Below, in pieces: positions 38,282-59,889 of a DNA stretch of 64,000 nucleotides. The notes beneath the pieces are model-generated. The model was not told the DNA's origin, did no database searches, and saw only the letters and a list, made by a program, of their open reading frames with translations. A program made the translations under genes and the position numbers. Source of the DNA: a virus (taxonomy: Duplodnaviria; Caudoviricetes); the IMG/VR virus record IMGVR_UViG_3300009185_000001, positions 138,881 through 202,880 of that record. One strand, written 5' to 3'. Every line of letters starts with the position of its first letter. Within the stretch, counting starts at the first letter, position 1.

Positions 38282-39157
38282 ATGAGCAAAGTATTAATTT
38301 TAGGAAAAGGTTTCGTTGGTAACTATTTAAACAAACGACTGTCGGTTAAAAATAAACTTCACATCTCTAAAAAAGATGTGGACTACTCTGATTATAATAC
38401 ATTTTTTAATTTCTTAAAAAAGCATAAATATCCAGCACCAGAAGAACAAAGAATTGAGCATGTTATAAACTGTTCTGGATATACGGGATCTCCAAACGTA
38501 GATGCCTGTGAAGATAACAAAGAATCTTGTTATCACTACAATGTAACAATTCCATTATACATCACAGAAGCATGTAATCGTTTAAGCATTCCAATAACAC
38601 ATATCGGAAGTGGATGTATATATGATGGGTATGAAAAATTTTATAGCGAAGAAGACATTCCGAACTTTGGAGCAGATTGTCATTATTCTTCGTTTTACTC
38701 AAAGACAAAAGATGCCTTTGAAAAACTTTCTGCTCGCTTTGATAGGTCTGTGTTGAGAATTAGGATGCCATTCTGCGAAGAAGTTAATCCTAAAAATTAT
38801 ATAAACAAACTCCTCAATTATGATACTTTGATATCTAAACCAAATTCATTAACATCTTTATATGATTTGAGTTTATTTGTTAATAAGTTTATATCAAGCG
38901 GATTAAGTGGAGTTTATAATATTGTAAATGATGGATCCATCGACTCCATAGAAATTACAAGAATTCTTAAGACACATGGAGTTGATAATCCTAATTGGAA
39001 ATTCGTTTCAATTAAAGATTTATCAACTAAAACACAAAGAAGTAACTGTATTCTCTCTACAGAAAAAATTGAAAAGAATTTTGGAAAGCTTCCAAATGTC
39101 ACAGAAAGCCTAGAATGGGCAGTAAAATATTTTGCGGAAAATTTAAAAAAACAATGA
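38282..39157 (+). CDS. NAD-dependent sugar epimerase/reductase (RmlD / NRS-ER-like)
   Basis: LILGKGFVG, INCSGYTGSPNVDACE, GSGCIYDG, catalytic YSKTK. Confidence 0.85.
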   Translation: MSKVLILGKGFVGNYLNKRLSVKNKLHISKKDVDYSDYNTFFNFLKKHKYPAPEEQRIEHVINCSGYTGSPNVDACEDNKESCYHYNVTIPLYITEACNRLSIPITHIGSGCIYDGYEKFYSEEDIPNFGADCHYSSFYSKTKDAFEKLSARFDRSVLRIRMPFCEEVNPKNYINKLLNYDTLISKPNSLTSLYDLSLFVNKFISSGLSGVYNIVNDGSIDSIEITRILKTHGVDNPNWKFVSIKDLSTKTQRSNCILSTEKIEKNFGKLPNVTESLEWAVKYFAENLKKQ

Positions 39158-39483
39158 AATTTAACAATCTTTTTAAAAAATATCTGAAAGAAACTCAATT
39201 AGAATTTGATTTCAAATATCCCTCGAAAGAAGAAAAATCAGAAGAGAAGAAAAAACTTCCAGAACCTTCCTTGAAGGATAAGTCTTTGTCAGATTCAAAA
39301 TTAAGAACCTTCACCGTATTTTGGGATAGAAATACATATGAAACAACTGCCATTTCAAGGCAAGAAGCAATTTCTCATATTGCTGCTAGATTGTCAAAAG
39401 GGTCAACCAAACCTATCGGAGTTCTAAAAAATGAAATGGCAAATTCATTAGTAAGAGACGAAAAGTGGAATGTAAAATATTAA
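39154..39483 (+). CDS. Hypothetical protein
   Basis: MKFNNLFKKYLKE|T leader. Confidence 0.55.
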   Translation: MKFNNLFKKYLKETQLEFDFKYPSKEEKSEEKKKLPEPSLKDKSLSDSKLRTFTVFWDRNTYETTAISRQEAISHIAARLSKGSTKPIGVLKNEMANSLVRDEKWNVKY

Positions 39484-39528
39484 AAGATTTTTCTTGATAT
39501 TTCCAGAAATATCTCATACAGTAAATCC

Positions 39529-39672
39529 ATGTTCACATTCATGGTAATTGCCACTTCAGAAGAAGAACCGTTTCTAGTAGAAGCAAACACTCAAGAAGAA
39601 GCACAGACAAAAGCATTAGAACTCTTGGGCTGGCACGTAATCAAAACAGAAGATGATTCAGAATCTGAATAA
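39529..39672 (+). CDS. 47-aa acidic protein (not in ORF track), leaderless
   Basis: TTGATA-N17-TACAGT promoter 6 nt before ATG; MFTFMVIATSEEEPF... Confidence 0.55.
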   Translation: MFTFMVIATSEEEPFLVEANTQEEAQTKALELLGWHVIKTEDDSESE

Positions 39673-39715
39673 GATTTTTATTGACAGTAACAAAACCTTT
39701 TAATACTATATAAAA

Positions 39716-40075
39716 ATGCCAAGAGGTAGACCAAGAAAAAACATTTCTACAAAGAATCTAATTGATAAAAGTATTGTGGGTGTACGCAAGAAACGTACCA
39801 AGTCTATTGTTCCAAGTATTGTGAAAAGACCAGTGGAAGAATTGACTACTAAAGAACGCGAAGAAAGAGAAAAATGGTTGGATAGCTTCTTGCCCAAGAT
39901 TGATCTCAATAAGAAAACTGTTGTCCTTGATTTGAATAAGAATGTAGAAGCATGTAAAGAACATACCAAAGGTGCTTGCGTTCGCCCTGACATATATCTA
40001 GACTATGGATGTAATCACTGCTCGCTATTTGAGAATTGTGCATGTCGCCTAAAAAAAGTTAAAAAAAATTATTGA
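39716..40075 (+). CDS. Basic protein with Cys cluster
   Basis: MPRGRPRK (AT-hook-like) and C..C...C..C...C.C tail. Confidence 0.6.
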   Translation: MPRGRPRKNISTKNLIDKSIVGVRKKRTKSIVPSIVKRPVEELTTKEREEREKWLDSFLPKIDLNKKTVVLDLNKNVEACKEHTKGACVRPDIYLDYGCNHCSLFENCACRLKKVKKNY

Positions 40076-40100
40076 CTTTACCGGAAATTTGAAATATAGT
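40072..40100 (+). promoter_or_regulatory. sigma70-type promoter driving the RNA island
   Basis: TTGACT-ttaccggaaatttgaaa(17)-TATAGT. Confidence 0.7.
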
Positions 40101-40136
40101 CCTATACATGATTTCGAATGACAAAGCTTGGTTGGT

Positions 40137-40262
40137 AAATAATAAGAGTTTCTGTGGTGGTTACTCTTATTATTTCGGAAGTCCTACCTTCTGTGGTGGT
40201 AGGTAGGACTTCCTTAAATTTGTGAGTTGGTTCCCGATGAGCCAATGGGACTGGGAATACTC
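40137..40262 (+). ncRNA. Candidate sRNA: two perfect 13-bp hairpins with an identical loop motif plus possible pseudoknot
   Basis: AAATAATAAGAGT/ACTCTTATTATTT and GGAAGTCCTACCT/AGGTAGGACTTCC, both carrying TTCTGTGGTGGT. Confidence 0.6.
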
Positions 40263-40634
40263 GGTCGAAACCAAAATCGGAAATTGATATTTGACATTTT
40301 AATTTTTTGGTAGATAGAGTAGTAATACCTATCCCTGTGGACTCGAAAGAGGAGTGATATCTGAAAAGAAGCGTTTCGAGAGTATTCGCACTCACTTACC
40401 AAATAATATTTTAAACCCGCCATGCCTCTGCTTGCAAGAGTAGTTTCTGAAGGCCAAGGCAACTAAGCAAGTCATGCATAATTTGGCGGGTGTTTTTATC
40501 AAGCGCAGATGCTATTTAAAAAGCTCTACCGCGACAGATGACAATGCAATGTTTCCGGAAACAACATTTAATCTGTAGGGAACTTCTCCTTAATAATCAA
40601 AAAAGAATGAGAAGTCTTGGTAATAAATTTAAAT

Positions 40635-40721
40635 GGGTTACTATACCGTTAAAGAGGCGGTCCAGACTGTAAATCTGGCGTGTTCTGCACTCACTAGGAG
40701 CATTACCTAGGTAGCCCACCA
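40635..40721 (+). tRNA. tRNA-Tyr(GUA), type II, non-canonical T loop
   Basis: GGGTTAC/GTAGCCC acceptor, CCAGA-CTGTAAA-TCTGG, variable arm, CTAGG-AGCATTA-CCTAG, encoded ACCA. Confidence 0.8.
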
Positions 40722-41135
40722 TTTTAATATAGAAAGAATAGATAGTGTTAGTAATAAATTTTGACTGGGATGTTGGTCTAGAAAATCATCATCTAAGGAG
40801 TGGAACTGGACGTGGAGAACTGGTAATTAGTAGGGACACAATTCATATAAGCCCTACATCCTATTTATAGGTACGGAGATGACCGTGAATTGCGTTTCAC
40901 AGGATAGAGAAATCTATAACCCCTTTAGCTTTAAAAAGCACACCAGTTTATTTTTGATAAGTCGGACGGGGAATGTGTGCTGTGCATTCTTAAAAAGCTC
41001 ACCGTTGCAGACGTATCACCAGACCCGATTAGGCAGGGGGTAACAAGTAACCTTCGTCCAACGTGTTAAAAACACGGTAGCCAATGAAGAGCTTTCTGGA
41101 ATTGATATTTAAAATTATATTGTAAATAGTTTATA

Positions 41136-41208
41136 TGCGGGTTACAGTTCTGGCGAACTGAGGGGTTTCATAAGCCTCTTTAGGTGGATTCGATTTCCAC
41201 ACCCGCAA
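41136..41208 (+). tRNA. tRNA-Met/Ile2 (CAU)
   Basis: TGCGGGT/ACCCGCA acceptor, loop TTCATAA, GTGGA-TTCGATT-TCCAC; no encoded CCA. Confidence 0.85.
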
Positions 41209-41216
41209 TTTTTAAT

Positions 41217-41349
41217 TCCTCATTAGACGAATTGGTAAAGTCACGGGACTGTGGGAGAAGCAGGTTAGCGTAATATGAGTTCGATTCTCATAACTCCAAG
41301 TCTAATCCCGCGCAGCAATGCATTCTTCGTTCAAGTCGAAGATGAGGAG
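41217..41349 (+). tRNA. tRNA-Ser(GCU)-like with ~50-nt insertion in the anticodon
   Basis: TCCTCAT/ATGAGGA acceptor, G73, D arm GAC/GTC, CGGGA/TCCCG anticodon stem, GCA-GCAA-TGC variable arm, CTTCG-TTCAAGT-CGAAG. Confidence 0.75.
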
Positions 41350-41513
41350 CATTTTAGAATAGATAAAAAGGTTCTCGATGATCCAGATAAAAAAAATCGA
41401 AAATACTTCTTGACCTTTTCAGAAAAAATTGTTAGAGTATTTGAAGATTAGTAAAGGTTATCTGAACCTTGTAAAAAAATCAGAAAAGATTTTTGATAGA
41501 ATAGAATTTATAT

Positions 41514-41856
41514 GGTCGAGTGGTGGAATGGCAGACACAACGGACTTAGAGAAATTTGAGCTTTGATTGGGAAACCTTTCAAATGTAACTTGTCAAATTC
41601 GGTGAAGGGTTTAAACTCCTAATACCGAGCCAAGCATCGAAAGATGAAGGTGTAGAGACTTGACGGCAAGAACCTAAAGCGAAAGCAATGGTTAAGGTAA
41701 AGTCCAGACTACAAACAGATTGAGAAAAGTAAATCCCGAAAGGATTGAACAGAGCGGTAAATACGCTGACTGACGAATCTGGTAACGAAAGTTATAGTAG
41801 TAAGAAAATCCGTTGCCAGTAATGGCGTGAGGATTCGAGTTCCTCCTCGACTACCA
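41514..41856 (+). tRNA. tRNA-Leu(UAA) split by a group I intron
   Basis: Exons 41514-41547 (…ACGGACTT) and 41805-41856 (AAAATCCGT…CTCGACTACCA) join to give a type II cloverleaf with loop CUUAAAA. Confidence 0.92.
41548..41804 (+). ncRNA. Group I intron (trnL-UAA / IC3-type position), 257 nt, no ORF
   Basis: P AAATTCGGTGAA, Q AATACCGAGCCAAG, R GGTGTAGAGACT, S AAGGTAAAGTCC; follows U34; ends in G; ACTAC/GTAGT P9.0. Confidence 0.92.
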
Positions 41857-41864
41857 ATTTAAAA

Positions 41865-41958
41865 GCAAGGTTAGTGTAACTGGAAGCACCGACAGACTTA
41901 TAATCTGTGTATCCTAGATTTGGATCGAGCGTGGGTTCAATTCCCACACCTTGCACCA
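41865..41958 (+). tRNA. tRNA-Ile(UAU)-like with long variable arm
   Basis: GCAAGGT/ACCTTGC, ACAGA-CTTATAA-TCTGT, 22-nt extra arm (ATCC/GGAT), GTGGG-TTCAATT-CCCAC, ACCA. Confidence 0.75.
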
Positions 41959-41981
41959 TTTTGTAAGTAGTTGATTTAGAT

Positions 41982-42053
41982 AGGGGTGAAGCATATTGGT
42001 CATGCGCTCTGCTCATAACGGAAGGAAAGTGGGTTCGATCCCCATCGCCCCTA
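41982..42053 (+). tRNA. tRNA-Met(CAU), elongator-like
   Basis: AGGGGTG/CGCCCCT, loop CTCATAA, GTGGG-TTCGATC-CCCAT. Confidence 0.85.
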
Positions 42054-42065
42054 CATTTTTCATAA

Positions 42066-42150
42066 GCACTTGTAACTCAACGCTCTTCTAAAGCGTCCTT
42101 TAACGAGTAATTGGATATAAGGTCTGTTGGTTCGAATCCAACCAAGTGCG
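42066..42150 (+). tRNA. Atypical tRNA-Arg(UCU)-like RNA with rearranged D/anticodon region
   Basis: Perfect acceptor GCACTTG/CAAGTGC, T arm GTTGG-TTCGAAT-CCAAC and anticodon arm ACGCT-CTTCTAA-AGCGT; D elements out of order. Confidence 0.7.
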
Positions 42151-42324
42151 CTTAATAAACAAAATACAGGTTCAAATCTCATTTCAATACAATGCCCCAC
42201 AAAAAACCCAAACCCTCCCACAAAGAAATTCTAAAATATCTGGAATTTCTTTCCTCAATCAAAAAAGTAAAGCCTTCTAAAACTCTCTTGACACCCAAGA
42301 AAAACTAACATACCATCTAACATC

Positions 42325-42633
42325 ATGGATATACTAAGAATCCTCCCAAAGGGAGAAAACATTGAAAACATAATAGAATCATTTAGAAGTACTTTAATCA
42401 ATTCTAAATGTGAACATTCTGCCAAGGTGTCGGTTTTCGTAGTAACAAAAGAAAAGTTTGAAAGGTCATGGAATTTAATATATCCAAACAATGAAGATGC
42501 CTTGTTGGAATCCTTGAAGAAAGAATATTTGGAATTGATTAACCAGAGACGAGTAACCGTAACAGTGGCAGAGGAAGAGAATTATTTTTTAAAAAACATT
42601 AAAAAAAATATTGACGAGAACGATATTTTTTAA
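42325..42633 (+). CDS. Hypothetical protein
   Basis: 102-aa ORF. Confidence 0.5.
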   Translation: MDILRILPKGENIENIIESFRSTLINSKCEHSAKVSVFVVTKEKFERSWNLIYPNNEDALLESLKKEYLELINQRRVTVTVAEEENYFLKNIKKNIDENDIF

Positions 42634-42645
42634 TACATTCAAATT

Positions 42646-42810
42646 ATGGAAGAAAACTACATCAAACTAATAAGCAAATACGGAAATCAAAAAGTGGAAT
42701 TCACAATTGATCCCGACATTGACATGACAGTAATGGTATCAACTCTGGAATGCTTCTTGAAAGCTATTGGATACCAATTCAATACACTGGAGGAATGGAT
42801 TAACGAATAA
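42646..42810 (+). CDS. 54-aa protein (not in ORF track)
   Basis: MEENYIKLISKYGNQKVEF...; fills the gap between co-oriented ORFs. Confidence 0.5.
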   Translation: MEENYIKLISKYGNQKVEFTIDPDIDMTVMVSTLECFLKAIGYQFNTLEEWINE

Positions 42811-42811
42811 T

Positions 42812-43170
42812 ATGAAACTAAAAGACATTGAAATACCAGATGGGCCAGTACTGGCAATTTTAGGATTTGGCTGCATATATTTTGGTGCTTGTTTGTTGGG
42901 CCTGACAATGACAATCGTCAAAGCAATTGCACTATACTTCTTTAACTATACTATTACAATCGGAGGAATACCACTATGAAAAGTAATGATATGCTTTTTA
43001 CCGGATTCGGATTAATTCTATTTGGAATCGGACTTCTTCTTATCAGTCCCTTCCTCTTGATATGGTCGGTGAATGGATTGTTTGGATTGACAATTCCTTT
43101 CACATGGACAAATTGGTTCTATGCCTTCATCATTATTATGTTGCTCCGAGGAAGTATTAGTAGCAAGTGA
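42812..43170 (+). CDS. Two small overlapping membrane proteins (42812-42979, 42976-43170)
   Basis: Hydrophobic helices; ATGA overlap. Confidence 0.55.
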
Positions 43171-43172
43171 TT

Positions 43173-43460
43173 ATGAATTACGATAAAGTTGATACTAAAA
43201 AGGCAAATGGAACTTCCTTTCAGGGAAAGATTAAAACAAACTTCTATAGGTTGGAAGAAGTATTCGGAGAACCCTTGTATCCAAATAGCGGAGACGGAAA
43301 GGTTATCTGTGAATGGGTATTGGAATTTGAAGACGAAACAATTGCAACGATCTATTGTTGGAAAGTTTCATCAATTCCTGTAGAAGAATATGATTGGCAC
43401 ATTGGCGGACATTCACAAAAAGCAGTTGAATATATTAAAACCTGTTTGAAAGAAAATTAA
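43173..43460 (+). CDS. Conserved phage hypothetical protein
   Basis: GTSFQG...FGEP...DGKVICEW...ATIYCWK...WHIGG. Confidence 0.6.
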   Translation: MNYDKVDTKKANGTSFQGKIKTNFYRLEEVFGEPLYPNSGDGKVICEWVLEFEDETIATIYCWKVSSIPVEEYDWHIGGHSQKAVEYIKTCLKEN

Positions 43461-43462
43461 TA

Positions 43463-43702
43463 ATGAATACAAAACAATATAGAATCAGTCTGGATAACCA
43501 AAAGAACTTCATTCTCAATACCTGCCCGATTGATGAACTAACAGAAGGATTCATCAGGGATGTTGTCATTGCATATAGGCTCCGACATATTAACCTGTTG
43601 AAGGCTCTGGAACATTTCTCAAAGAAAGATATAGAACAGGTTCTAGAAGCAATGGCGAATCTTAATCATACTATTGAAGAATTTATCAAAGAAGAAGATT
43701 AA
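43463..43702 (+). CDS. Hypothetical protein
   Basis: 79-aa ORF. Confidence 0.5.
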   Translation: MNTKQYRISLDNQKNFILNTCPIDELTEGFIRDVVIAYRLRHINLLKALEHFSKKDIEQVLEAMANLNHTIEEFIKEED

Positions 43703-48420: not shown

Positions 48421-48757
48421 GAGGATTTTTGATATTATTTTTATTGGGAAAATTTTTTTTGGTGTGAGTATGATTGTGCATATATTTATGCGTATATGAT
48501 GGGGGAGGGGAGGGGTAGGCAGATTTTGCCTATCAAAAGTTTTTGGAGGTGTCGAAAAATAAAAATTTGACACCTCCAAAACTTTGAAATTTTTGATGCG
48601 GAAATTTTTGCCTATCAAAAGTTTTTGGAGGTGTCGAAAAATAAAAATTTGACACCTCCAAAACTTTCCATGCTGTGGTTGCTCTCCCAAACTTTTTTTC
48701 ATGTTTCCAAAAATAGTTCTTGCTTTTACCAGAAATAAAAACTATTCTATTTGCCTT

Positions 48758-50725
48758 ATGAAATTGCAAACCGCCACAACAACAATCGAACAAATCGGAA
48801 ACATATCACAAGAGGCTCAATTCACGATGAAGACATCGAGAAAAGCCTTTCAGATTCTTTCTGACTTGTATAGTGATAAACCCCTCGCAATCGTTCGTGA
48901 ACTTGGAGCAAATGCCAAGGACGCAATGGTTGCTGCTGGTAAAGGAGATCAACCATTCCATGTTAAACTTCCCAATGCTCTGGAGCCTTGGATTGTTATT
49001 GAAGATATGGGAACTGGTATTTCCCATGAAGACATATACAATGTCTATACGAAATACTTTGAATCTACCAAGTCAGAATCAAATGATTTTGTGGGATGCC
49101 TCGGCTTGGGCAGCAAAAGCCCTTTCTGCTACTCGGATAACTTTTTGATCACTTCTACCCACCAAGGAGTCAAACGCATCTACAATGCCTTTTTCAGCCA
49201 AACTGGAACTCCTGCCATTTCTTTGATGTCCACAGAGAATACAGATCAAGGCAATGGATTGGCAATTCAAATTCCTGTTAAGCTCGCAGATGTTGTCACC
49301 TTCTGCAATGCGGTTGCAAAAGCCTTTCGCTTCTTCAAGATCAAGCCTTCTATTAGTGGTGGGACTATTGATTGGAAGATCAACAAGATTATGTTTGAGG
49401 GTGAAGGATGGGAAGCTCACGAAGGTTTCACCTATGGGGAATGCTATGCAATCATGGGTGGCGTTACCTATCCTGTGGATCGTTACAAACTTTCACATGA
49501 GGCTCAAAACTTTTGTGCCAAGGGTGGAGTTGTCATGTATTTTGAGATCGGAGAATTGGATGTAACTCCTTCCCGCGAATCTCTTTCTTATGACGATGCA
49601 ACAATCAAATCACTTGAAAGCAAATTTGCCTTTATCAAGAAAGATTTTGAGGAAAAGCTGACCAATACTATCGAAGGCAAATCAAACCTTCTGGATGCAC
49701 TTCGTTCACATTGGAATCTTTCTCACACCTTTGCTCATCTTACTACCAATTTTGACAATGTGAAATGGAGGGGCATTGAGCTTTCAAATCCTGCTCAACT
49801 CATTTCAAAAATATCAAAGGGTGATGTTATGACTCATTCCTTTACAAAGTATTCTCGTTCCAAGTATCGGGAATCGGTTTTTGTTTCGATTGATACAAAA
49901 GCCAAGTGGTATGTCGATGACCTTGCAAAAGGAACAACAGCAAGGGTTAAACAACACCTTCGCAGCAACAACGACGATATGCTTTGCGTATTCAGCAAAG
50001 AAACATTCGATACTCTTGTCAATCATAAGGATGTAAACTATCGCTTCGATGCTTCGATGTTCATTCCAACTTCTACCCTGCCCAAGGTTGTCAATACTCC
50101 CAAGGGTGGAACGAGGACTCCCAAGGTTGGTTTCAATGTTTATACCTTTGGAACATCTTGGCACTCCCGATGGGATTCTGAAACCTTCAACCCTGCCAAT
50201 GCTCCCAAATACTATATCGTAAAAGAGGGAAGCACATGGGATATTTCAATCAAAACAAACTTTGGAAAAATCAGCGGAAAGTCTGACTTGCGTTCTTTGC
50301 TTGGATATTTGAATCTCAAGGAATCTGATATTGTCATGGTATCCCCTCAAAACGAAAAGCATCTTGCCCCATTCTCAAAGAATATCAAAGATGCTGCCAA
50401 TGATATTAAAATTGACTTGGATGAAGATACGATTGCAACCGCACAGCATTATGCTAATGATACTTATCAAGATATTAAAAAGCATCCCACATTCAAGAAA
50501 CTGAAACAAGATTCTGATTTTGTGGTGTTTGTGAACAAAGTCTGTGCGGCTCATAATAGTGTGAAGAAATATAAAAACCTTTTGGGAATGTTTACTATGT
50601 CAAAGGGAAAGCCAGCAGTCCTTGATTCCCAATGCCCTATCACAAATCTTGTGTCAAAGCGTATGGGAAGATATGGATGGGAAGCAGAAGACATTCTAAC
50701 CATCCTCGAAAATTTCCAAAAATAA
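48758..50725 (+). CDS. rIIA: rIIA-like protein (HSP90/GHKL ATPase domain); true start likely 48758
   Basis: AFQILSDLYSDKPLAIVRELGANAKDA, DMGTGIS, YFESTK, GCLGLGSKSPFCYSD. Confidence 0.9.
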   Translation: MKLQTATTTIEQIGNISQEAQFTMKTSRKAFQILSDLYSDKPLAIVRELGANAKDAMVAAGKGDQPFHVKLPNALEPWIVIEDMGTGISHEDIYNVYTKYFESTKSESNDFVGCLGLGSKSPFCYSDNFLITSTHQGVKRIYNAFFSQTGTPAISLMSTENTDQGNGLAIQIPVKLADVVTFCNAVAKAFRFFKIKPSISGGTIDWKINKIMFEGEGWEAHEGFTYGECYAIMGGVTYPVDRYKLSHEAQNFCAKGGVVMYFEIGELDVTPSRESLSYDDATIKSLESKFAFIKKDFEEKLTNTIEGKSNLLDALRSHWNLSHTFAHLTTNFDNVKWRGIELSNPAQLISKISKGDVMTHSFTKYSRSKYRESVFVSIDTKAKWYVDDLAKGTTARVKQHLRSNNDDMLCVFSKETFDTLVNHKDVNYRFDASMFIPTSTLPKVVNTPKGGTRTPKVGFNVYTFGTSWHSRWDSETFNPANAPKYYIVKEGSTWDISIKTNFGKISGKSDLRSLLGYLNLKESDIVMVSPQNEKHLAPFSKNIKDAANDIKIDLDEDTIATAQHYANDTYQDIKKHPTFKKLKQDSDFVVFVNKVCAAHNSVKKYKNLLGMFTMSKGKPAVLDSQCPITNLVSKRMGRYGWEAEDILTILENFQK

Positions 50726-50767
50726 ATCTTGCAATTACCAGAAATAATCTCTACTATTATCAGCCTT

Positions 50768-51814
50768 ATGAACACTACAAACAATGCAGTCACAATCACA
50801 GGAACAGGAAAAATCGCAGCGGTCGTCAATGGCAGACCATACTCGATTGCTTCTGATCATCCAAACTACAATCAAATCATTGGGGCTATCAAATCCCAAG
50901 ACTGGACTTCGTTCGTAACTCTTGCCGATGTTACAAGCCAAGTGAAACAATACACGACAACCGATGGAGTTGAGATCGTGGATGGAGCAGTCATCTATAA
51001 GGGTGAAGCAATTCACAATACTCTCACCAATCGAATCGTGAAGTTCATGGGTGAAGGTCTGCCCTTCCAACCCCTCGTAAGGTTCTTGGAAAATCTGATG
51101 AACAATCCAAGCAAGCGAGCAGTGGATGAACTCTACACATTCTTGGAAGTCGGGGAACTTCCAATCACAGAGGATGGATGCTTTCTGGCATACAAGAATG
51201 TTCGTGCGGATTACATGGACATTCATTCGGGAACATTCAGCAACAAGATTGGTGATGTTTGCGAAATGCCTCGCAATCGGGTTTGCGATGATAGCGAACG
51301 CACTTGCTCTGCGGGTCTTCACTTCTGTTCAATCGCATACCTTCCCCACTTCTCCGATAGTGATGGAGGACATACAATGATTGTGAAGATCAATCCTGCG
51401 GATGTTGTTTCAATTCCAAAGGATTACAACAATACTAAAGGTCGGGCTTGCAAGTATGAAGTCATTGCAGAATACACCGAGGATTGGCGTTCCAAGCTCA
51501 ACAAAGGTGAAAGCGGATGGGATGCAGGTCTTTACACTTCTGATGGTGAAGACTATGAGCTTGATGAACTCGATGAGCTTGACGAAAATGAAAACGAAAA
51601 CGATTGCACCTACTCTCATCCAGATTGCGATGATTACCATTGCTTCTGCGAGGACAAGGATTATGGTTACAAACCCAATGGTCACAAGTTCCACAATGTT
51701 CGTGGAGCCGATGGAAAGTTTGTAAAGAAAGAAGAAGAAGGTTTAGGTAAGGTGGTTGGTGGATTGGTGAAGGCATTCAGCGATGCTCTCAACAAAGCAG
51801 GATATATTCACTAA
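50768..51814 (+). CDS. rIIB: rIIB-like protein; true start likely 50768
   Basis: FLENLMNNPSKRAVDELYTFL, LPITEDGCFLAYK, MPRNRV.DD, CSAGLHFCS, VKINPADVVSIPKDY. Confidence 0.92.
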   Translation: MNTTNNAVTITGTGKIAAVVNGRPYSIASDHPNYNQIIGAIKSQDWTSFVTLADVTSQVKQYTTTDGVEIVDGAVIYKGEAIHNTLTNRIVKFMGEGLPFQPLVRFLENLMNNPSKRAVDELYTFLEVGELPITEDGCFLAYKNVRADYMDIHSGTFSNKIGDVCEMPRNRVCDDSERTCSAGLHFCSIAYLPHFSDSDGGHTMIVKINPADVVSIPKDYNNTKGRACKYEVIAEYTEDWRSKLNKGESGWDAGLYTSDGEDYELDELDELDENENENDCTYSHPDCDDYHCFCEDKDYGYKPNGHKFHNVRGADGKFVKKEEEGLGKVVGGLVKAFSDALNKAGYIH

Positions 51815-51830
51815 TCGTTTCATAGGGAAA

Positions 51831-51864
51831 AATCCCCACTCTCAAAAGGAGTGGGGATTTTTTT
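51831..51864 (+). terminator. Intrinsic terminator
   Basis: AATCCCCACTC/GAGTGGGGATT plus T7. Confidence 0.85.
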
Positions 51865-52045
51865 GTGCCTTGAAAAGTTTACCATTTCAAAAAACCCTTC
51901 CCGTAAAACTTTTTTGGAGGTGTCGAAAAATAAAAATTTGACACCTCCAAAACTTTCCGCACTGGATGAGTGCTGCGGTTGCGTTTTTCAAACCATCGAA
52001 AAAAGTTCTTGACCTTACCAGAAATTTCTGAGAGAATTATTGTCT

Positions 52046-52600
52046 ATGAAATCTTATATGCAACAAATCAGCGACTTTGGTAGAGTAGTATCAGAGTATG
52101 ATGAGAATAAGCATATCCTTTCAAAAACAAAATCAATAAACGAAAAGGTAGATGCTCTGTGCAAAGCCATTGAGTATCTTAAACAAAGAGAAGAAGAAGA
52201 ATACGAAGAAGACGAAGAAGACGAAGAAGACGAAGAAGACGAAGAAGAAACACCATCAATAACATCAAGAATAATCAAATCTATGAAAATGCCTGTAATA
52301 ATAGTAGTAGCCGCACATCTGGCAGTGATCGGAGGAATAATGATTACTTCATCAAATTCCGCAAAAGCCAAGCAAATTTCTTCTGATAAAAAAGCATTGG
52401 AAGAATCATATAGTTATGCGAGTGTCGAAGACAAAGGAGAAAACGATTGGCCTAAACCAAAATTCCATGTAGTAACTTCCAAGGATACTTTTTATGGATT
52501 GGTAAAAAAGTATAAAGTCGATGCCAATAAATTCAAAGAAATAAACAAAATCAAAGACATCAATGTTCTGATTGATGGTAAAAAGCTAATCATACCATGA
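52046..52600 (+). CDS. Membrane-anchored protein with acidic tract and C-terminal LysM domain
   Basis: (EED)n tract, TM helix PVIIVVAAHLAVIGGIMI, HVVTSKDTFYGLVKKY...NKIKDINVLIDGKKLIIP. Confidence 0.75.
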   Translation: MKSYMQQISDFGRVVSEYDENKHILSKTKSINEKVDALCKAIEYLKQREEEEYEEDEEDEEDEEDEEETPSITSRIIKSMKMPVIIVVAAHLAVIGGIMITSSNSAKAKQISSDKKALEESYSYASVEDKGENDWPKPKFHVVTSKDTFYGLVKKYKVDANKFKEINKIKDINVLIDGKKLIIP

Positions 52601-52840
52601 CACTCCAAGAAGTTCGCCAACGCAAGAAAGAGAGTAAGAAGACTTTAAGACATTTCTGGACAGCAGTATGCTTGGGAAATATTATATTACTCACAATGCT
52701 TGCGATTATTTCCTATAATCTTTGAAAAATAGTTCTTGACTTTACCAGAAATTTCTGGAATAATATCGCCTCAATCAAACCACAACGAGCAAAGGAACGG
52801 ATGTTCTATCTTGCAAACTATCAACCCTAAAACAAATCAA

Positions 52841-53143
52841 ATGAAATATAAAACCTTCCCATTCACCATCACTATTGACGATGGTTTCAACGAACCTAAA
52901 AATTTCAAAATGGAATTTGATGGTAGTGTTAGTATGCTCGATCTCATCAAAACCTTGGAAGAAAAATTCCAAGCTAAACCATCCATCGAGGAACTTCTTT
53001 CAGAAGCTATGGAACTGGCGAGCAAATCAATCACGCTTGCGGAGGATTATAGTGAATCCGAAAAGGTGAAATGCCTCGCAAAGAAGTTTGAAGAACTGGA
53101 ATGCAAAGTATGGGATATGGAAGAATCTATCTCCCAAAAATAG
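52841..53143 (+). CDS. Hypothetical protein (likely start MKYKTF)
   Basis: ORF downstream of the promoter at 52736. Confidence 0.5.
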   Translation: MKYKTFPFTITIDDGFNEPKNFKMEFDGSVSMLDLIKTLEEKFQAKPSIEELLSEAMELASKSITLAEDYSESEKVKCLAKKFEELECKVWDMEESISQK

Positions 53144-53180
53144 TAAAATCAACCAACAAAAAAAACAAACCAAAAACCAA

Positions 53181-53645
53181 ATGAAAACTAATATGTCATT
53201 CACAGGAGATTTAGGACACAATCCTAAAATCATTGAAAAGTATAATCGAATTGCAAAAAGATTCGATGTAACCGAACTTCCAATCCTTTTAGAATCTTGG
53301 ATGGACGAAACCGATATGCACGATTTCGCAACTCATCTGGAAAATAGATACTATGCTAATTTCAATGAGTATGTGATCGAATACAACATTCGTTCTCTCT
53401 GTGGAACGAAAGCATATTCAGCAGTCATCATCGACAAGAAAGAGTTTGGATCAGATTTCGAGGATATGGTTTCTTACCACATAGCCCATGAGGTGAAAGA
53501 AGATGGTTCTGTATATTATCTGGAACACGACTTGGAAGGAAGACGAGCAGATAAAGGGAATCAAAATGTTTTATATGATCGTGCATGGGTTCGATCACCC
53601 AAGGAAGGAAAAGAATTTCTTCGATACCTTGAGGCAAATCTTTAA
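53181..53645 (+). CDS. Hypothetical protein (likely start MKTNMS)
   Basis: A/C-rich leader precedes the ATG. Confidence 0.5.
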   Translation: MKTNMSFTGDLGHNPKIIEKYNRIAKRFDVTELPILLESWMDETDMHDFATHLENRYYANFNEYVIEYNIRSLCGTKAYSAVIIDKKEFGSDFEDMVSYHIAHEVKEDGSVYYLEHDLEGRRADKGNQNVLYDRAWVRSPKEGKEFLRYLEANL

Positions 53646-53748
53646 AATAATTCTTGACATATTTTCAAGAATAAAAGAATATATCGACTTCATTGATGGT
53701 AAAACATCATATATAACCAAAACAAAAACCAAATAGAAAGAAAAGCAA

Positions 53749-54225
53749 ATGCCAAACCATTGCAACAACCAACTCACACTCGCAAGCGGAGAAGACCTTT
53801 TGAGTGTATTGAATCCCTACATAACATTAAAGGGAGATGACATTATCGGATGCCAAGAATACCACTTCGATTTCAACAAGATCATTCCAGAACCAAAACC
53901 AGAAGTAGAAGACTGGTATGGATGGAGAGTAGAAAATTGGGGAACGAAATGGGAAGGATATGAGGGTCGATTCAATCAGGATCAATCCGAATTCTCATTT
54001 TGCACAGCATGGAGTCCTCCACTTCCAATCATAAAGAAACTCGCAGAAATTACTGGACAGACTTTTGTTCTTGGGTATATTGAAGAAGGAATGTTCTTCT
54101 GTGGAAAATATACAGCAGGACGAGAATTTGACCATGATGAGTATTACGATGACATCAAAGCAGCACCACAGGAACTTCAAGATGAACTCGGATATGAGGA
54201 ATGGGAAGAAGTAGAAACAGAATAA
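53749..54225 (+). CDS. DUF1281/YubB ferredoxin-like family protein
   Basis: MPNHC.N.L, FDFNKIIPEP, WYGWRVENWGTKW, F.TAWSPP. Confidence 0.75.
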   Translation: MPNHCNNQLTLASGEDLLSVLNPYITLKGDDIIGCQEYHFDFNKIIPEPKPEVEDWYGWRVENWGTKWEGYEGRFNQDQSEFSFCTAWSPPLPIIKKLAEITGQTFVLGYIEEGMFFCGKYTAGREFDHDEYYDDIKAAPQELQDELGYEEWEEVETE

Positions 54226-54260
54226 CCAACCAACCAACCAACCAACCAAACAAACAATAC

Positions 54261-55661
54261 TATGAAATTCACAAGAACAGAATATGTAAGGCGTTATCCA
54301 GAAATGAACAAGATGCGGAAGAATGATCCAATACAATTCAGCGTTTTATTCAATGAGTGGGTTAGAAAAAATAAAAAATAAAAACAACCAACCAATAAAA
54401 ACCAAATGAGAAAAATATATGTAGATGTAAAAGTTCGATTGATTATGAACCTTGAAGAAGGAGTATCGGTCGATGATGCAATCAGCGAAATGGATTATGT
54501 TTTTAATCTTGAAAATGAACATGGAGAGATGGTGGATACAGAGATAATGGATTACAATGTGGAGGATTCAAAATGAAAACAATTACATTGACAGAAGCGC
54601 ATCGAATCCTTGAAGATGCAAGTGCCATAATCATTGACAATGATGTTGTGCTGTATCCATCATTGTCAGAATTGAAAGAAGACGATACAAACGAGTTCAT
54701 GTATCTATCATGGGGTTATGAAGGAGAAGGTTATAGTCTCAGATTTGAAGAGTGGAGAAACCAAGAAGTAGAAGTTGTAGGTTCTTCAATGTTTCTTTAT
54801 GCAAAAGGAGACAGTGACCATACCCAAATTACAATCCTAATAACAAAAGAATTAGAATAATATGAACATCAACAAACTCATCAAACGACTCGAAAAGATT
54901 AAAGACTTGGGAGTCAAAGAAGTAAGTGTAATCGACTGCAACTGGAACGACTGGGACATTGAAACAATCGAACCAGATACAAGCGGAGGATTCGCAATGA
55001 TTCAAATCTCACAATCAGAATCATTCGGACAAGATGAAGAGGATAGTGAAATCTATCCAGAAGAAATTGAAGATTAAAAATATGAAAATACTAACAGACA
55101 ACCGATACATTGGAACCCTCGAACGAAAAATTGCAGTAACCCTAAACCAAAATCTAATTCCCGATGAAGAAGGAAAATACCTTTCTATGGCAAAATCTAT
55201 GGATGCTTTGACAGAAGAAATTTCTCGATCCGTCCGCAGGTTTCAGAATGAAAGTATTCCAGAGAGTATCTGATGAAGGTTAAACCTCAACTATATCAAA
55301 CTGCTGTGTCAAATCAACTTAAAAAGAAAATGACAATAGTCATGGAAGGCGGACTCATTCAAGATATTGTAAAGGAAAATATCTCAGATGTTCTAATAGA
55401 AGTCCACGACTATGATGTTGATGGTATTGATCCCTCAACGCTTAAAAAAGATAACAACAACAAACAATTCCACAAAACAACCTTAGATTGATATGTCAAG
55501 CAAAGAAGCCAAAATTATTGCATTCGCCCTTCAACATCTTCTGATTGATTGGAACGATAACATTGAAAACCAACTCGATGATATTGCAATCGACAAGGAC
55601 ATTGAATACCTCCAAAAGAAATACGAAGGCAAAAGCCAAACATACATAGCACACGAACTCT
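54261..55661 (+). CDS. Run of seven tightly packed small ORFs (54261, 54406, 54573, 54862, 55082, 55273, 55493)
   Basis: Abutting or overlapping starts and stops; acidic small proteins with no recognised family. Confidence 0.5.
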
Positions 55662-56635
55662 AATAGTGTTTTTATAGAACAGCGTGTCAGAATGTAACAT
55701 AGTGTTACATTGCAACAAAAAATCAAACACTTTATTTTTTTTCACACGCACATACGTAACGCATACGTGAGAGGACTTGACAAATTTTTTTCCAGAGGTA
55801 TGTATATTAAGAATACTTCTTAAATTATGAATTCTTCAGAATATATTAAGAATATATAATTATATATTAGTAAATTAACAATTCTTTATAATATTAACAA
55901 TATATAAAATATATAATAATATTAAGAAAATATAATAATACTAAGAATAGGCAAGATGGAAAGTAATTTAGGAAAAGAATTTGATTTGACCTTTGACGGA
56001 ATATTAGATAGGTGGGTAGTCATTGGAATCTTTGAAGAGAATAATGACTATCAATACATCATTCAAAACAAAAAGGAAGATTGTAAAATTATTAACAAAG
56101 AAGAAATAGAATAAACCACATACAAAAAATAAATAGGGATTTCCCCAAGAGATTAAAAACTCTTGGGGTTTTTTTATGCGTATGGAATGGTTTTTTATAT
56201 TTATACGCATAAATTTAGGTAGGCAAAATTTGCCCACTCCTGCAAGTTTTTGGAGGTATTAAAAAATAAAAATTTGACACCTCCAAAAACCTCAAAGCCC
56301 ATTGACGGAAAATTTTCAAGTTTTGGAGGTGTCAAAAAATAAAAATTTGACACCTCCAAAACTTTCCAGTTCGGCGTTTAAAAATAAAAATTATTCTTGC
56401 TTTTATCAGAAAAAAATTATAGTCTTCTCAACCTTATGAAAAATCTATTCTCATTCCTATTCCCTGCAAAGAAACCTTCATTGCTTGCCTTGAGCATTGC
56501 CACCTTCACGAATGAAAGCCACCTTTCCCAAATTTTCCGACAAGGGAGAATATGGGAATACTCTATAAAATAATTTTCCCGATTGGAAAAATAATTCTTG
56601 CTATTACCAGAAATATCTGAGAAACTATCTGCCTT

Positions 56636-57313
56636 ATGAAGCTACTATCCACCACAAACACGAAAATCAAAAAGGGCGAAAAATTCGGATGGACTACCTT
56701 CGGGCTTTCCCTCGCTCCTGCAAACCTTTCAGGCAAACAGCTTTGCCCTCATCGCAGCAAAGGCTGTGAATTGGCTTGTCTCAACACCGCTGGCATGGGT
56801 GTCTTTTCAAATGTTCAAGAGGCTCGTATCGCCAAATCAAAATATCTGATTGAGGAAAAAAATTCTTTTGTTGCTCAACTGAAAAAAGAATTGATTGCTG
56901 CCGAAAAGAAATCCAAGAAACTTGGCATGAAAATTGCGGTTCGTTTGAATGTCCTTTCCGATCTTCCGTGGTATAACATGATTGAGATGTCTGAATATCC
57001 TAACATCCAATTTTATGATTATACTCCAAATGTTTCACGCATGATTCAATTCTTGCGTGGGGAATTGCCAGAAAATTATCACCTCACTTTTTCCCGTAAA
57101 GAAAATAATCAAAGCAAAGTCGAATTGATTGCTTCTATGGGGGGAAACATTGCTGCCGTATTTGATACGCTTCCTGATACCTATCTTGGAAAGAAAGTTA
57201 TTGATGGGGATGAAACCGATCTCCGCTTCATGGATGATAAGAATGTCATTGTCGGATTGAAAGCAAAAGGAAAAGGAAAGAAAGATACTTCGGGCTTCGT
57301 GATTAAAGCCTAA
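56636..57313 (+). CDS. GP88-like phage protein
   Basis: LSLAPA...LCP.RS.GC..ACL..AG.G, VRLNVLSDLPW, FYDYT, NYHLTFS, DGDETDLRF. Confidence 0.7.
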   Translation: MKLLSTTNTKIKKGEKFGWTTFGLSLAPANLSGKQLCPHRSKGCELACLNTAGMGVFSNVQEARIAKSKYLIEEKNSFVAQLKKELIAAEKKSKKLGMKIAVRLNVLSDLPWYNMIEMSEYPNIQFYDYTPNVSRMIQFLRGELPENYHLTFSRKENNQSKVELIASMGGNIAAVFDTLPDTYLGKKVIDGDETDLRFMDDKNVIVGLKAKGKGKKDTSGFVIKA

Positions 57314-57330
57314 AAACTTTCCTCCATAAA

Positions 57331-57365
57331 AACTCCACACTCTGAAAGGGGTGTGGAGTTTTTTT
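57331..57365 (+). terminator. Intrinsic terminator
   Basis: AACTCCACAC/GTGTGGAGTT plus T-run. Confidence 0.85.
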
Positions 57366-57735
57366 ATATCTTGGCACGATCCTTGCTTGTAAGCAAAATC
57401 TGTGCCAACTATAAAATCTCCTCCCCCGTGAAACTTTTTTTGGAGGTGTCAAAAAATAAAAATTTGACACCTCCAAAAAACCCCTATCGCTGGGGTGTTC
57501 ACCTGCCTATTACTTTTTGAAAATTGGTTATGTTTTCCTCCTATGAAAACTCGAATCACTCTGCATCTTCGTTGTATGATCAATAATCCTAAGAATTGGA
57601 AATTCTATGCCAAGGGAATCCTTCGTGAATTCCATGAAGTCTTTCTCACCTTCATGGATTGCTTCTGAAACTATTTTTCCAATTAGAAAAAAAGTTCTTG
57701 ACTTTACCAGAAATATCTGAGAAACTTTCTGCCTT

Positions 57736-58146
57736 ATGAAACTTAAATTCCAATACACCGATGGAGGACGCTCACTCGCTGGCTACTCAGGAAAGACTGG
57801 GGATTGCGTAGTTCGTGCGCTTGCACTTGCCACAGGCTCATCATATATGAATATGTATCAGTTCGTCAATGCAACCTCAAAGGCATTTGAATCTCATCGC
57901 AGAGTCAAATCCAATAATGTTCATGGAGTATATGAAGCATCCGTTCGCGGAATTATGAGGGTCATGAAATTCAAGTGGACGGCAAAGAAAGTCGGAGCTA
58001 TGCTAAAAATTCCAACAAAGGGAAGTTATATCGTTTCCATCCAAGGTCATGTTTGCGCTGTCGTCAATGGAATTATCTTGGACACTCACAATTCCCTCAC
58101 CCCCGACAATCTTCGTTACTCCTACGGATACTGGAAAGTAAAGTAA
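57736..58146 (+). CDS. Conserved phage hypothetical protein, leaderless
   Basis: GDCVVRALA.A.G..Y, YIVSIQGHV.AV.NG...DT. Confidence 0.6.
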   Translation: MKLKFQYTDGGRSLAGYSGKTGDCVVRALALATGSSYMNMYQFVNATSKAFESHRRVKSNNVHGVYEASVRGIMRVMKFKWTAKKVGAMLKIPTKGSYIVSIQGHVCAVVNGIILDTHNSLTPDNLRYSYGYWKVK

Positions 58147-58153
58147 AAATCTT

Positions 58154-58387
58154 ATGAACACACTAACAGACAAAACAAAACCTTGGGGAAAAATAACCTT
58201 TATCCATCACAAGACAGGCAAAGAACATTCTTTCTATTCATGCGTAAATAAACTATCAAATAGCCGCTTGTCTGCATTTGATAATGAAGCTCCTTCTATC
58301 GGAGACAACATGGCATGGGTAAAAAGCGTTTTTAGAAAAATCAATGGAAAGTGCAAAGTTTTATCATTTGAGGGAAACATAAAATAA
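58154..58387 (+). CDS. Hypothetical protein
   Basis: 77-aa ORF. Confidence 0.5.
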   Translation: MNTLTDKTKPWGKITFIHHKTGKEHSFYSCVNKLSNSRLSAFDNEAPSIGDNMAWVKSVFRKINGKCKVLSFEGNIK

Positions 58388-58560
58388 AAACATTAACCAC
58401 ACTCCTCGCTACTATCACAGATACTAATATGAAATACCTAAACGACTCTCTAACCTTTGCAATCTTTATGGCTGTGTTCTTCTATTCCATGATGGGACTT
58501 ATCCTTGCTCTTGGAAAGTTTGTAGAGACTCACGGACTATAAGCAAACATCGTTCCTCAG

Positions 58561-58596
58561 AATCCCATCACTCGAAAGGGTGGTGGGATTTTTTTT
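58561..58596 (+). terminator. Intrinsic terminator (identical copy at 60851-60887)
   Basis: AATCCCATCAC..GTGGTGGGATT plus T-run. Confidence 0.85.
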
Positions 58597-59869: not shown

Positions 59870-59889
59870 GGGAATAACCTCATAAGAAG

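What the first reader, a model, noticed from the sequence alone, without database searches (positions are those of the whole stretch)
40137..40213. Twin perfect 13-bp hairpins with unrelated stems but the same exposed 12-mer TTCTGTGGTGGT
Seen: hairpin 1 (40137-40175, AT-rich stem) and hairpin 2 (40177-40213, GC-rich stem) are 1 nt apart and lie about 30 nt downstream of a strong promoter. The stems share no sequence, but the loop motif is identical. Established: repeated single-stranded motifs on stable stems are the design of protein-sponge RNAs (CsrB/RsmZ) and seed-presenting sRNAs or RNA antitoxins. Inference: a phage sRNA that titrates a host RNA-binding or defence protein, or pairs with ACCACCACAGAA-containing targets.
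Basis: partly seen in the sequence, partly recalled or inferred. Interest (0 to 1): 0.72.

Follow-up and report, generated by a model that had tools for sequence, protein, structure and literature searches.

The report
Twin same-loop hairpins in phage RNA leader
A freshwater T4-like phage carries two perfect RNA hairpins with unrelated stems but one identical exposed loop, inserted in one narrow phage lineage ahead of a widely conserved small structured RNA; the element is real and seems to be transcribed, but its partner and function are unknown.

Summary
Hairpin 1 (40137-40175) and hairpin 2 (40177-40213) each have a perfect 13-bp stem. They are 1 nt apart, and both expose UCUGUGGUGGU. They lie about 30 nt after the predicted start of a strong sigma-70 promoter (40072-40100). 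The motif occurs nowhere else in the 203-kb genome.

The context is new. The pair is a roughly 99-nt insertion, flanked by a TTGGTT duplication, in the 5' leader of a conserved pseudoknotted small RNA (40225-40284). That RNA heads the tRNA/ncRNA island of a freshwater T4-like myophage. About 60 other phage contigs carry the same core RNA about 12 nt after their promoter. Only this phage's own lineage has the twin hairpins.

Contigs from two lake RNA libraries (different studies) cover hairpins and core together. The hairpin region diverges four times less than the adjacent gene.

No Rfam family matches. No complementary target exists in the phage. No bacterial homologue was found.

Best reading (about 0.4): an RNA-level module that shows one loop motif twice to a loop-specific partner, more likely a dimeric protein than an RNA. 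The sponge or seed function is untested.

The scan has noted a similar same-loop multi-hairpin design in another lake jumbo phage (a lead only).

The parts
40072..40100 (+). Sigma-70 type early promoter TTGACT-17-TATAGT, preceded by an A-rich tract; predicted start about 40106-40108
   Evidence: 10 of 12 matches; sequence. The homologous promoter in L008 and the consensus promoters in about 60 relatives sit in the same position relative to the core RNA.
40107..40136 (+). 5' leader, ending in the first copy of TTGGTT (40128-40133); homologous to the short leader of L008
   Evidence: In L008 the leader runs straight from ATGATT... into TTGGTTC of the core.
40137..40175 (+). Hairpin 1: 13-bp AT-rich perfect stem, 13-nt loop holding UCUGUGGUGGU between a U.U pair
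40176..40176 (+). Single unpaired C between the two hairpins
40177..40213 (+). Hairpin 2: 13-bp GC-richer perfect stem, 11-nt loop UCUGUGGUGGU
   Evidence: The L003/L098 strain has A40186G, which turns an A-U pair into G.U on the + strand RNA.
40214..40226 (+). Linker (TTAAATTTGTGAG) between hairpin 2 and the core; the end of the roughly 99-nt insertion, followed by the second TTGGTT (40227-40232)
   Evidence: TTGGTT lies on both sides of the inserted segment.
40225..40284 (+). Conserved core small RNA: stem TTGG(TTC)/(GAG)CCAA (40227-40245); its loop CCGAT (40234-40238) pairs with ATCGG (40276-40280); covarying hairpin 40249-40266; A-rich joiner 40267-40275
   Evidence: Twenty-five distinct versions of the inner hairpin all fold at the same place. 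L008 has TCGAT together with ATCGA, a compensatory change.
40285..40320 (+). AU-rich spacer with a TTGACA box before the next RNA module; RNA contig X10 ends here (40292)

Best explanation
The twin hairpins are a functional RNA module added to the 5' leader of a conserved small structured RNA in one lineage of freshwater T4-like phages. They are transcribed from the early promoter at 40072-40100 together with the core RNA, as one unit of roughly 185 nt (about 40107-40292). They fold into two very stable, independent stem-loops. The stems are deliberately unlike each other, which prevents cross-pairing and recombination. Each hairpin presents the same single-stranded 11-mer UCUGUGGUGGU. The motif is read by a loop-specific partner supplied in trans, most likely a protein that binds two sites at once (a dimer). 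The equal 13-bp stems and 1-nt joint would let the two helices stack into a roughly 26-bp rod with the same loop at each end. The effect is then either on this transcript and the ncRNA/tRNA operon behind it (stability, processing or read-through), or on the partner itself (sequestration). Shown: the anatomy, uniqueness, insertion status, conservation among strains, and presence in RNA libraries. Inferred: that a partner exists, that it is a protein, and what the consequence is.
For: Two perfect 13-bp stems with no shared sequence around an identical 11-mer, 1 nt apart, cannot be a duplication or chance. Both hairpins have pair probabilities near 1 in the full transcript. The element lies downstream of a strong promoter and upstream of a structured RNA proven by covariation, so the + strand is an RNA-coding context. 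RNA-library contigs from two studies cover it: X10 at 40126-40292 with no differences, X15 at 40095-40332. No RNA contig was laid over 40024-40077, just upstream of the predicted start. Between the window and strain L003/L098, the adjacent gene differs at 21 of 360 positions, but promoter + leader + hairpins differ at only 2 of 138. DNA contig X2 has 18 differences in the gene and none from 40128 to 40572. The loops are invariant in all four haplotypes seen, and one stem change is A-U to G.U.
Against: No partner is identified. The module is absent from every more distant relative that has the same core RNA (L008 and about 60 contigs), so it is dispensable for the core's function. There are too few diverged copies to show covariation or loop conservation with any power. 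One strain (X15) has T40174C, which makes an A.C mismatch near the base of hairpin 1 on the + strand. RNA contigs cannot show strand or ends, and an RNA library can contain DNA. Low divergence could also reflect recent recombination of the whole ncRNA cassette, which clearly happens here: L030 has the same core behind a different promoter.
Confidence: 0.4

Rival explanations
1. Seed-presenting sRNA. The two loops base-pair with a complementary ACCACCACAGA-like site in a host (or phage) RNA, as repeated loop motifs do in CcsR/cuckoo RNAs or at the docking sites of phage P1 C4 antisense RNA.
For: The motif is exposed twice on stable stems. The scan has noted this logic in other phages (leads only).
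Against: No complement of 7 nt or more lies in the ncRNA island. The best genome-wide site is a 10-mer at genome position 99374, which is about what chance gives. Complement 6-mers are not enriched around gene starts. Loops of 11-13 nt are long for a kissing interaction. Host RNAs could not be searched.
Confidence: 0.12
2. Cis-acting modifier of RNA polymerase, comparable to HK022 put RNA. The nascent two-hairpin RNA binds the elongating polymerase just after the promoter and makes it resistant to pausing, Rho and hairpin terminators across the 3.5-kb untranslated, highly structured ncRNA/tRNA array.
For: The gross anatomy matches put: about 70-77 nt, two stem-loops, a single nucleotide at the fork, and a position just downstream of an early promoter (put features from PMC9378689; anatomy). 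The downstream array is untranslated and structured.
Against: Put stems are irregular, with bulges, a triplex and non-canonical pairs that make the polymerase contacts. Here both stems are perfect, and the conserved feature is the loop. Relatives transcribe the same kind of array without the module. There is no sequence similarity and no Rfam match.
Confidence: 0.1
3. An insertion without a trans partner: a remnant of a small mobile or recombination-derived insert (TTGGTT on both sides), or a purely structural 5' block that slows RNA decay. On this view the identity of the loops is historical.
For: It is a lineage-specific roughly 99-nt insertion flanked by a 6-nt direct repeat. It is absent from L008 and all other core-bearing loci. 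Empty-site relatives exist with an identical core.
Against: There is a single copy in the genome, and none elsewhere in viral, metagenome or bacterial collections outside this lineage. There are no terminal inverted repeats. Unrelated perfect stems of equal length around an identical loop are not what duplication or drift produces. The region is more conserved than the neighbouring gene.
Confidence: 0.2
4. A DNA-level site: two direct copies of TTCTGTGGTGGT 39 bp apart, each in a cruciform-capable palindrome, bound by a DNA-binding or nicking protein (regulation, recombination or replication).
Against: Nothing requires unrelated inverted repeats for a duplex-DNA site. The context is an RNA gene array, and the region is present in RNA libraries. 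No endonuclease or recombinase gene lies beside it.
Confidence: 0.07
5. A 32-codon gene (40108-40206) that starts at the transcript's first AUG and encodes a peptide with two FCGG motifs. The 12-mer repeats in frame, 13 codons apart.
For: The frame is open from an ATG at the predicted transcription start, and both 12-mers are read as F-C-G-G.
Against: All three substitutions seen among strains (40127, 40174, 40186) are non-synonymous (codon positions worked out). There is no ribosome-binding site and no Pfam match. Coding does not explain two perfect 13-bp palindromes.
Confidence: 0.03

Closest known systems
CsrB/RsmZ-type protein-sponge RNAs
   Same: One short single-stranded motif is shown repeatedly in the loops of separate hairpins whose stems differ.
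   Different: Those loops carry GGA (ANGGA) for CsrA/RsmE, usually in many copies on short stems. Here there are two copies of UCUGUGGUGGU without GGA, on 13-bp stems, attached to another structured RNA. No Rfam match.
Cuckoo / CcsR (alpha-r14) sRNAs and similar seed-in-loop sRNAs
   Same: Tandem hairpins each present the same loop motif, used as a pairing seed.
   Different: Their motif is C-rich (an anti-Shine-Dalgarno type) and conserved across many genomes. This one is G/U-rich, has no detectable complementary target in the phage, and is confined to one lineage.
HK022 put RNA (putL/putR)
   Same: About 70 nt, two stem-loops meeting at a single nucleotide, placed just after an early phage promoter, ahead of a long transcription unit.
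   Different: Put stems are irregular, and those irregularities bind the polymerase zinc-binding domain; the loops are not the shared feature. Put belongs to lambdoid phages. Here the stems are perfect, the loops are identical, and the phage is T4-like.
Lambda nut boxB / N-type antitermination hairpins
   Same: A promoter-proximal RNA hairpin whose loop is read by a small basic protein. A small basic protein gene (39716-40075) lies immediately upstream here.
   Different: BoxB is a 5-bp stem with a 5-nt GNRA-like loop next to boxA. None of that is present. The upstream protein also occurs in L008, which lacks the hairpins.
Three same-loop hairpins noted by this scan in another lake jumbo phage (e1-5370427)
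   Same: Consecutive perfect hairpins with different stems and one identical loop, in an uncultured freshwater large phage.
   Different: A different loop (9 nt), a different location, and reportedly conserved in many phages and complementary to their early ribosome-site tag. The analogous test here was negative. That note is an unchecked lead.

Membership tests
CsrB/RsmZ sponge RNAs | Multiple GGA / ANGGA motifs in loops or single-stranded stretches | tested here: not met
   The loops read UUCUGUGGUGGUU and UCUGUGGUGGU; there is no GGA.
CsrB/RsmZ sponge RNAs | Match to the Rfam covariance models of the family | tested here: not met
   No such hit at gathering score or at E up to 10 on the 216-nt region.
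HK022 put RNA | About 70-nt RNA of two stem-loops joined at a single nucleotide, just downstream of an early promoter | tested here: met
   77 nt, two stem-loops, C40176 between them, about 30 nt after the predicted start (put description).
HK022 put RNA | Irregular stems (bulges, non-canonical pairs, a short triplex) that form the interface with the polymerase beta' zinc-binding domain | tested here: not met
   Both stems are 13/13 perfect Watson-Crick pairs with no bulge (feature from PMC9378689).
HK022 put RNA | Suppresses terminators downstream without protein factors | not testable with these tools
   This needs an in vitro transcription or reporter assay.
Lambda-type nut site | boxA plus a boxB hairpin (5-bp stem, 5-nt GNRA-like loop) | tested here: not met
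   Stems are 13 bp and loops 11-13 nt; there is no boxA-like sequence in 40107-40226.
Cuckoo/CcsR seed-in-loop sRNAs | C-rich anti-Shine-Dalgarno loop motif with complementary sites at target ribosome-binding regions | tested here: not met
   The loop is G/U-rich. Complement 6-mers are not enriched in the -45..+15 region of 297 phage ORF starts.
Miniature mobile element (MITE / IS200-605-type palindromic element) | Multiple copies, terminal inverted repeats or matching end hairpins, target duplication | tested here: not met
   There is a single copy in the genome and none outside the lineage. The hairpin stems are unlike each other. Only a 6-nt flanking direct repeat (TTGGTT) is present.
Any Rfam 15 family | Covariance-model match | tested here: not met
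   The best hit on 40095-40310 is rhtB at 25 bits against a gathering score of 55, and it is driven only by the hairpin 2 stem.

The most novel reading that the evidence does not exclude
The two equal 13-bp helices stack into a pseudo-two-fold-symmetric dumbbell that shows the same G/U-rich loop at both ends. This would act as a decoy or recruiter for a homodimeric host factor (a defence or RNA-processing protein). Alternatively, through the overlapping UGGU units in each loop, it could capture the ACCA 3' ends of uncharged tRNAs in the way a T-box bulge does. Either would be a previously undescribed type of phage RNA effector bolted onto a conserved small RNA.
Probability: 0.07. Interest if true: 0.8.

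Novelty: new variant of a known kind. Interest (0 to 1): 0.42.

Why it matters
If the loops do recruit or sequester a specific factor, this would be a compact natural example of bivalent RNA display in an environmental T4-like phage. It would also give a handle on the unexplored ncRNA islands of freshwater jumbo phages. Because the module is an add-on to a widespread conserved RNA, natural with/without pairs already exist for comparison. As it stands, it is a well-defined but lineage-restricted element of unknown function. The conserved pseudoknotted core RNA beside it may be the more general discovery.

Tried and rejected
- **Phage records:** a megablast of 39000-43000 found nothing. The distant search hit only the group I intron and tRNA parts.
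- **Twin-motif scan of viral contigs:** this gave one true relative (L003). The other three hits were Thr-rich coding repeats read on the other strand.
- **Single-hairpin scans:** only L003 for hairpin 1. For hairpin 2, only unrelated coding hits (a CPFCGG zinc-finger type).
- **Protein-anchored metagenome scan:** using the upstream 119-aa protein, this found no relative.
- **Bacterial and archaeal genome scan:** the twin 11-mer gave 112 stretches. A check for hairpin context left only L150 (a coding tandem duplication in a glycosyltransferase-like gene) and L164 (a Leptolinea non-coding region where the motif and its near-complement alternate like an attenuator). I judged both coincidental.
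- **Anti-Shine-Dalgarno decoy idea:** the loop pairs with the 16S 3' tail at -8.4 kcal/mol, against -17.3 for a canonical site, and only through the GGUGGUU end of hairpin 1. This is weak.
- **tRNA 3'-end pairing:** ACCA alone gives -3.4 kcal/mol. The only CCACCA in the island is at 40716, which is chance level.
- **MFE closing helix:** the helix between leader TTGGTT and AACCAA (40267-40272) is not conserved in L003.
- **Strand inference from substitutions:** one change favours the + strand (G.U) and one favours the - strand, so there is no verdict.
- **Pfam and PHROGs on neighbouring small proteins:** nothing informative, apart from a sub-threshold AT-hook hit on the upstream protein.
- **RNA-contig cover gaps and contig depths:** these cannot rank expression or define RNA ends.

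Full report
**Observation.** The sequence shows two adjacent perfect hairpins.
- Hairpin 1 pairs 40137-40149 with 40163-40175. The stem is 13/13 and AT-rich, and the 13-nt loop is 40150-40162.
- Hairpin 2 pairs 40177-40189 with 40201-40213. The stem is 13/13 and GC-richer, and the 11-nt loop is 40190-40200.
- Only C40176 separates them.
- The 12-mer TTCTGTGGTGGT is at 40150-40161 and 40189-40200. In hairpin 2 its first T is the closing pair.
- The strictly exposed common element is therefore UCUGUGGUGGU. In hairpin 1 it is bracketed by a U.U mismatch.

A sigma-70 type promoter (TTGACT-17-TATAGT, 40072-40100, behind an A-rich tract) puts the likely start at about 40106-40108, some 30 nt before hairpin 1.

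Folding supports the structure.
- The 201-nt region folds with z = -4.45.
- Every one of the 26 pairs has probability 0.77-1.0 in the predicted transcript.
- The hairpins alone fold at -13.1 and -23.3 kcal/mol.

Chance does not explain this.
- The 12-mer with up to one mismatch is found twice, against 0.17 expected.
- The 11-mer occurs only at these two places in the 202,880-bp genome.
- Perfect hairpins of 13 bp or more are expected 0.2 times per window, but 18 are seen.
- Among all perfect hairpins of 11 bp or more in the genome, no other pair is adjacent and shares a loop on different stems.

**What genome this is.** The window is the last 64 kb of a 202,880-bp virus record with terminal repeats and 32% G+C. 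It encodes rIIA, a T4-type major head protein and a portal protein, so it is a T4-like myophage. Sequencing runs that hold the stretch are freshwater or lake metagenomes.

The hairpins open a roughly 3.6-kb stretch (40100-43700) with no credible genes. This stretch holds tRNAs, one tRNA interrupted by a group I intron, and several other structured modules.

**What lies next to the hairpins.** Thirteen nucleotides after hairpin 2 begins a small RNA that is conserved far beyond this phage. Its layout, starting at 40225, is:
- AG, then the stem TTGGTTC ... GAGCCAA around the loop CCGAT;
- a short hairpin;
- an A-rich joiner;
- ATCGG, ending at 40280.

A pattern taken from its first 20 nt found it in 22 viral contigs and about 40 of 90 metagenome hits. 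The remaining metagenome hits were coding look-alikes that lack the 3' part.

Evidence that this core is a real structured RNA:
- The inner hairpin has 25 distinct sequences that all fold at the same place into 5-7 bp stems (nearly all 6-7), with at least six unrelated stem versions.
- The loop CCGAT can pair with the downstream ATCGG. The one lineage with TCGAT has ATCGA (L008, L045, L107), which is a compensatory change supporting a pseudoknot.
- The first 20 nt were fixed by my search pattern, so their invariance is not evidence.
- No Rfam family matches the core or the hairpins.

**The hairpins are a lineage-specific insertion.** In every other core-bearing contig, the core starts about 12 nt after the -10 box of a consensus early promoter. 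Only the window, L003/L007 and L098 have the twin hairpins. L003/L007 and L098 are the same strain from two metagenomes.

- **L008:** it shares the upstream 119-aa gene at 76% identity and the same promoter-leader. Its leader runs from ATGATT straight into TTGGTTC of the core.
- **The window:** TTGGTT appears before the insert (40128-40133) and again at the start of the core (40227-40232). The module therefore looks like an insertion of about 99 nt with a 6-nt flanking repeat.
- **L030/L068/L085:** they have a core and downstream sequence identical to L003, but behind a different promoter and without hairpins. Promoter-leader units and RNA modules are evidently reshuffled in this island.

**Expression and conservation.** Two lake RNA libraries from different studies contain contigs over the element.
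- X10 covers 40126-40292 with no differences.
- X15 covers 40095-40332 with three differences.
- No RNA contig was laid over 40024-40077, just upstream of the predicted start.
- The X10 contig ends in the AU-rich spacer after the core.

Contigs cannot give strand or ends, and RNA libraries may contain DNA. This is supportive evidence, not proof.

Between the window and L003/L098, divergence by region is as follows:

| Region | Differences | Percent |
|---|---|---|
| Upstream 119-aa gene | 21 of 360 | 5.8% |
| Promoter + leader + hairpins | 2 of 138 | 1.4% |

DNA contig X2 has 18 differences in the gene and none from 40128 to 40572. Four haplotypes are seen and both loops are invariant in all. 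The stem changes are:
- A40186G (L003), which changes A-U to G.U on the + strand RNA;
- T40174C (X15), which makes an A.C mismatch two pairs from the base of hairpin 1.

These two changes point to opposite strands, so they give no strand verdict. The sample is too shallow for covariation.

**Search for a partner.** Nothing in the phage is complementary to the loop beyond chance.
- There is no 7-mer complement in the island.
- Genome-wide, the best site is a single 10-mer at genome position 99374, in the 3' end of a gene.
- The complement is not enriched near 297 ORF starts.

The motif with hairpin context is absent from one genome each of about 185,000 bacterial and archaeal species; the two candidates were coincidences. 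Neighbouring proteins give no RNA-binding annotation. The basic, Cys-rich 119-aa protein just upstream has a sub-threshold AT-hook hit and also occurs in L008 without the hairpins.

**Mechanism.** Two features need explaining: an identical loop on unrelated stems, and two stems of exactly equal length joined by one nucleotide.
- Duplication followed by drift cannot give unrelated perfect stems around an unchanged loop in a lineage this young.
- Selection for two independent presentations of one motif can. Unlike stems prevent cross-pairing and deletion.
- Equal stems with a 1-nt joint would allow coaxial stacking into a 26-bp rod with the same loop at both ends. Such an object has two-fold pseudo-symmetry and suits a dimeric binder. 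This last point is inference.

I therefore favour an RNA-level bivalent display module read by a trans factor, protein more likely than RNA (confidence about 0.4). It would act either on the transcript it heads or on the factor.

Rivals:

| Rival | Confidence | Main point |
|---|---|---|
| Seed-pairing sRNA | 0.12 | No target found in the phage; the host is untested |
| Put-like modifier of RNA polymerase | 0.10 | Gross anatomy matches the description in PMC9378689; put depends on irregular stems, and relatives manage without the module |
| Insertion with no partner, or a simple stabiliser | 0.20 | Flanking repeat and dispensability favour it; single copy, design and conservation argue against |
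| DNA-level site | 0.07 | See the rival entry |
| 32-codon FCGG x2 gene | 0.03 | All three strain substitutions are non-synonymous; no ribosome site |

**Comparison with known systems.**
- In design it resembles Csr/Rsm sponges and cuckoo/CcsR seed-in-loop sRNAs, but it fails their defining motifs.
- In position and outline it resembles HK022 put, but it fails the irregular-stem feature.
- It is not a nut site, not a mobile-element family member, and not in Rfam.
- The scan's notes list a similar three-hairpin, one-loop element in another lake jumbo phage, read there as complementary to early ribosome-site tags. I used that as a lead, and the analogous test was negative here.

**Verdict.** This is a real, non-random, probably transcribed RNA element that is new as a sequence family but follows a known design principle. 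It is restricted to one phage lineage and its partner is unknown. Interest is moderate. The neighbouring conserved pseudoknotted RNA is more widespread and deserves its own follow-up.

Noticed in passing
window 40225-40284 (and L008-L118 loci): A conserved small RNA of about 60 nt sits directly after early promoters in about 60 freshwater and marine phage contigs. It has a stem TTGGTTC/GARCCAA whose loop CCGAT pairs with a downstream ATCGG (pseudoknot; TCGAT/ATCGA in one lineage), a strongly covarying inner hairpin, and an A-rich joiner. The topology recalls small pseudoknot riboswitches, but there is no Rfam match.
   Followed up: partly
window 41368-41402; L008 3990-4040: A stripped-down second copy of the core motif (GGTTCTCGATGATCC ... 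A-run ... ATCGA), without the inner hairpin, lies just before another promoter-like site (41410-41438).
   Followed up: no
L008 3420-3500, L010, L028; window 41708-41770: A segment of about 60 nt (starting TTGAGAAAAGTAAATCCC...) is inserted into the loop of the core's inner hairpin in three phages. It is nearly identical to a segment inside the group I intron of the window's split tRNA, so it looks like a portable structured module.
   Followed up: no
window 48541-63328: About ten copies of a 41-47-nt perfect hairpin (TTTTGGAGGTGTC - A-rich loop - GACACCTCCAAAA) lie in the rIIA/early-gene region. The 5' arm is a perfect Shine-Dalgarno sequence, the 3' arm is its anti-SD-like complement, and the loop/3' arm junction reads TTGACA. 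This resembles the PeSL-type early promoter-stem-loop cassettes of T4-type phages.
   Followed up: no
window 41506-41857: A tRNA gene is interrupted by a group I intron (Rfam Intron_gpI, 50.5 bits, at 41538-41724). ARAGORN does not call this tRNA.
   Followed up: no
window 40108-40206: A 32-codon open frame starts at the first AUG of the predicted transcript and reads both loop motifs as F-C-G-G in the same frame. It is probably incidental.
   Followed up: partly
window 40416-40491: A sub-threshold match to the abiF RNA motif (28.1 bits, gathering score 37) falls within the next ncRNA module. The same module (GACCCGCCATGCCTCT...) follows the core in several other phages.
   Followed up: no
L164 2805-2875 (Leptolinea MAG): The same 12-mer occurs twice in a non-coding region with its near-complement between the copies, giving mutually exclusive hairpins like an attenuator. 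It is unrelated to the phage element as far as I can tell.
   Followed up: no
L008 4190-4625: An HNH endonuclease-like ORF is inserted in the tRNA/ncRNA island of the relative. This fits with the heavy module shuffling seen in this region.
   Followed up: no
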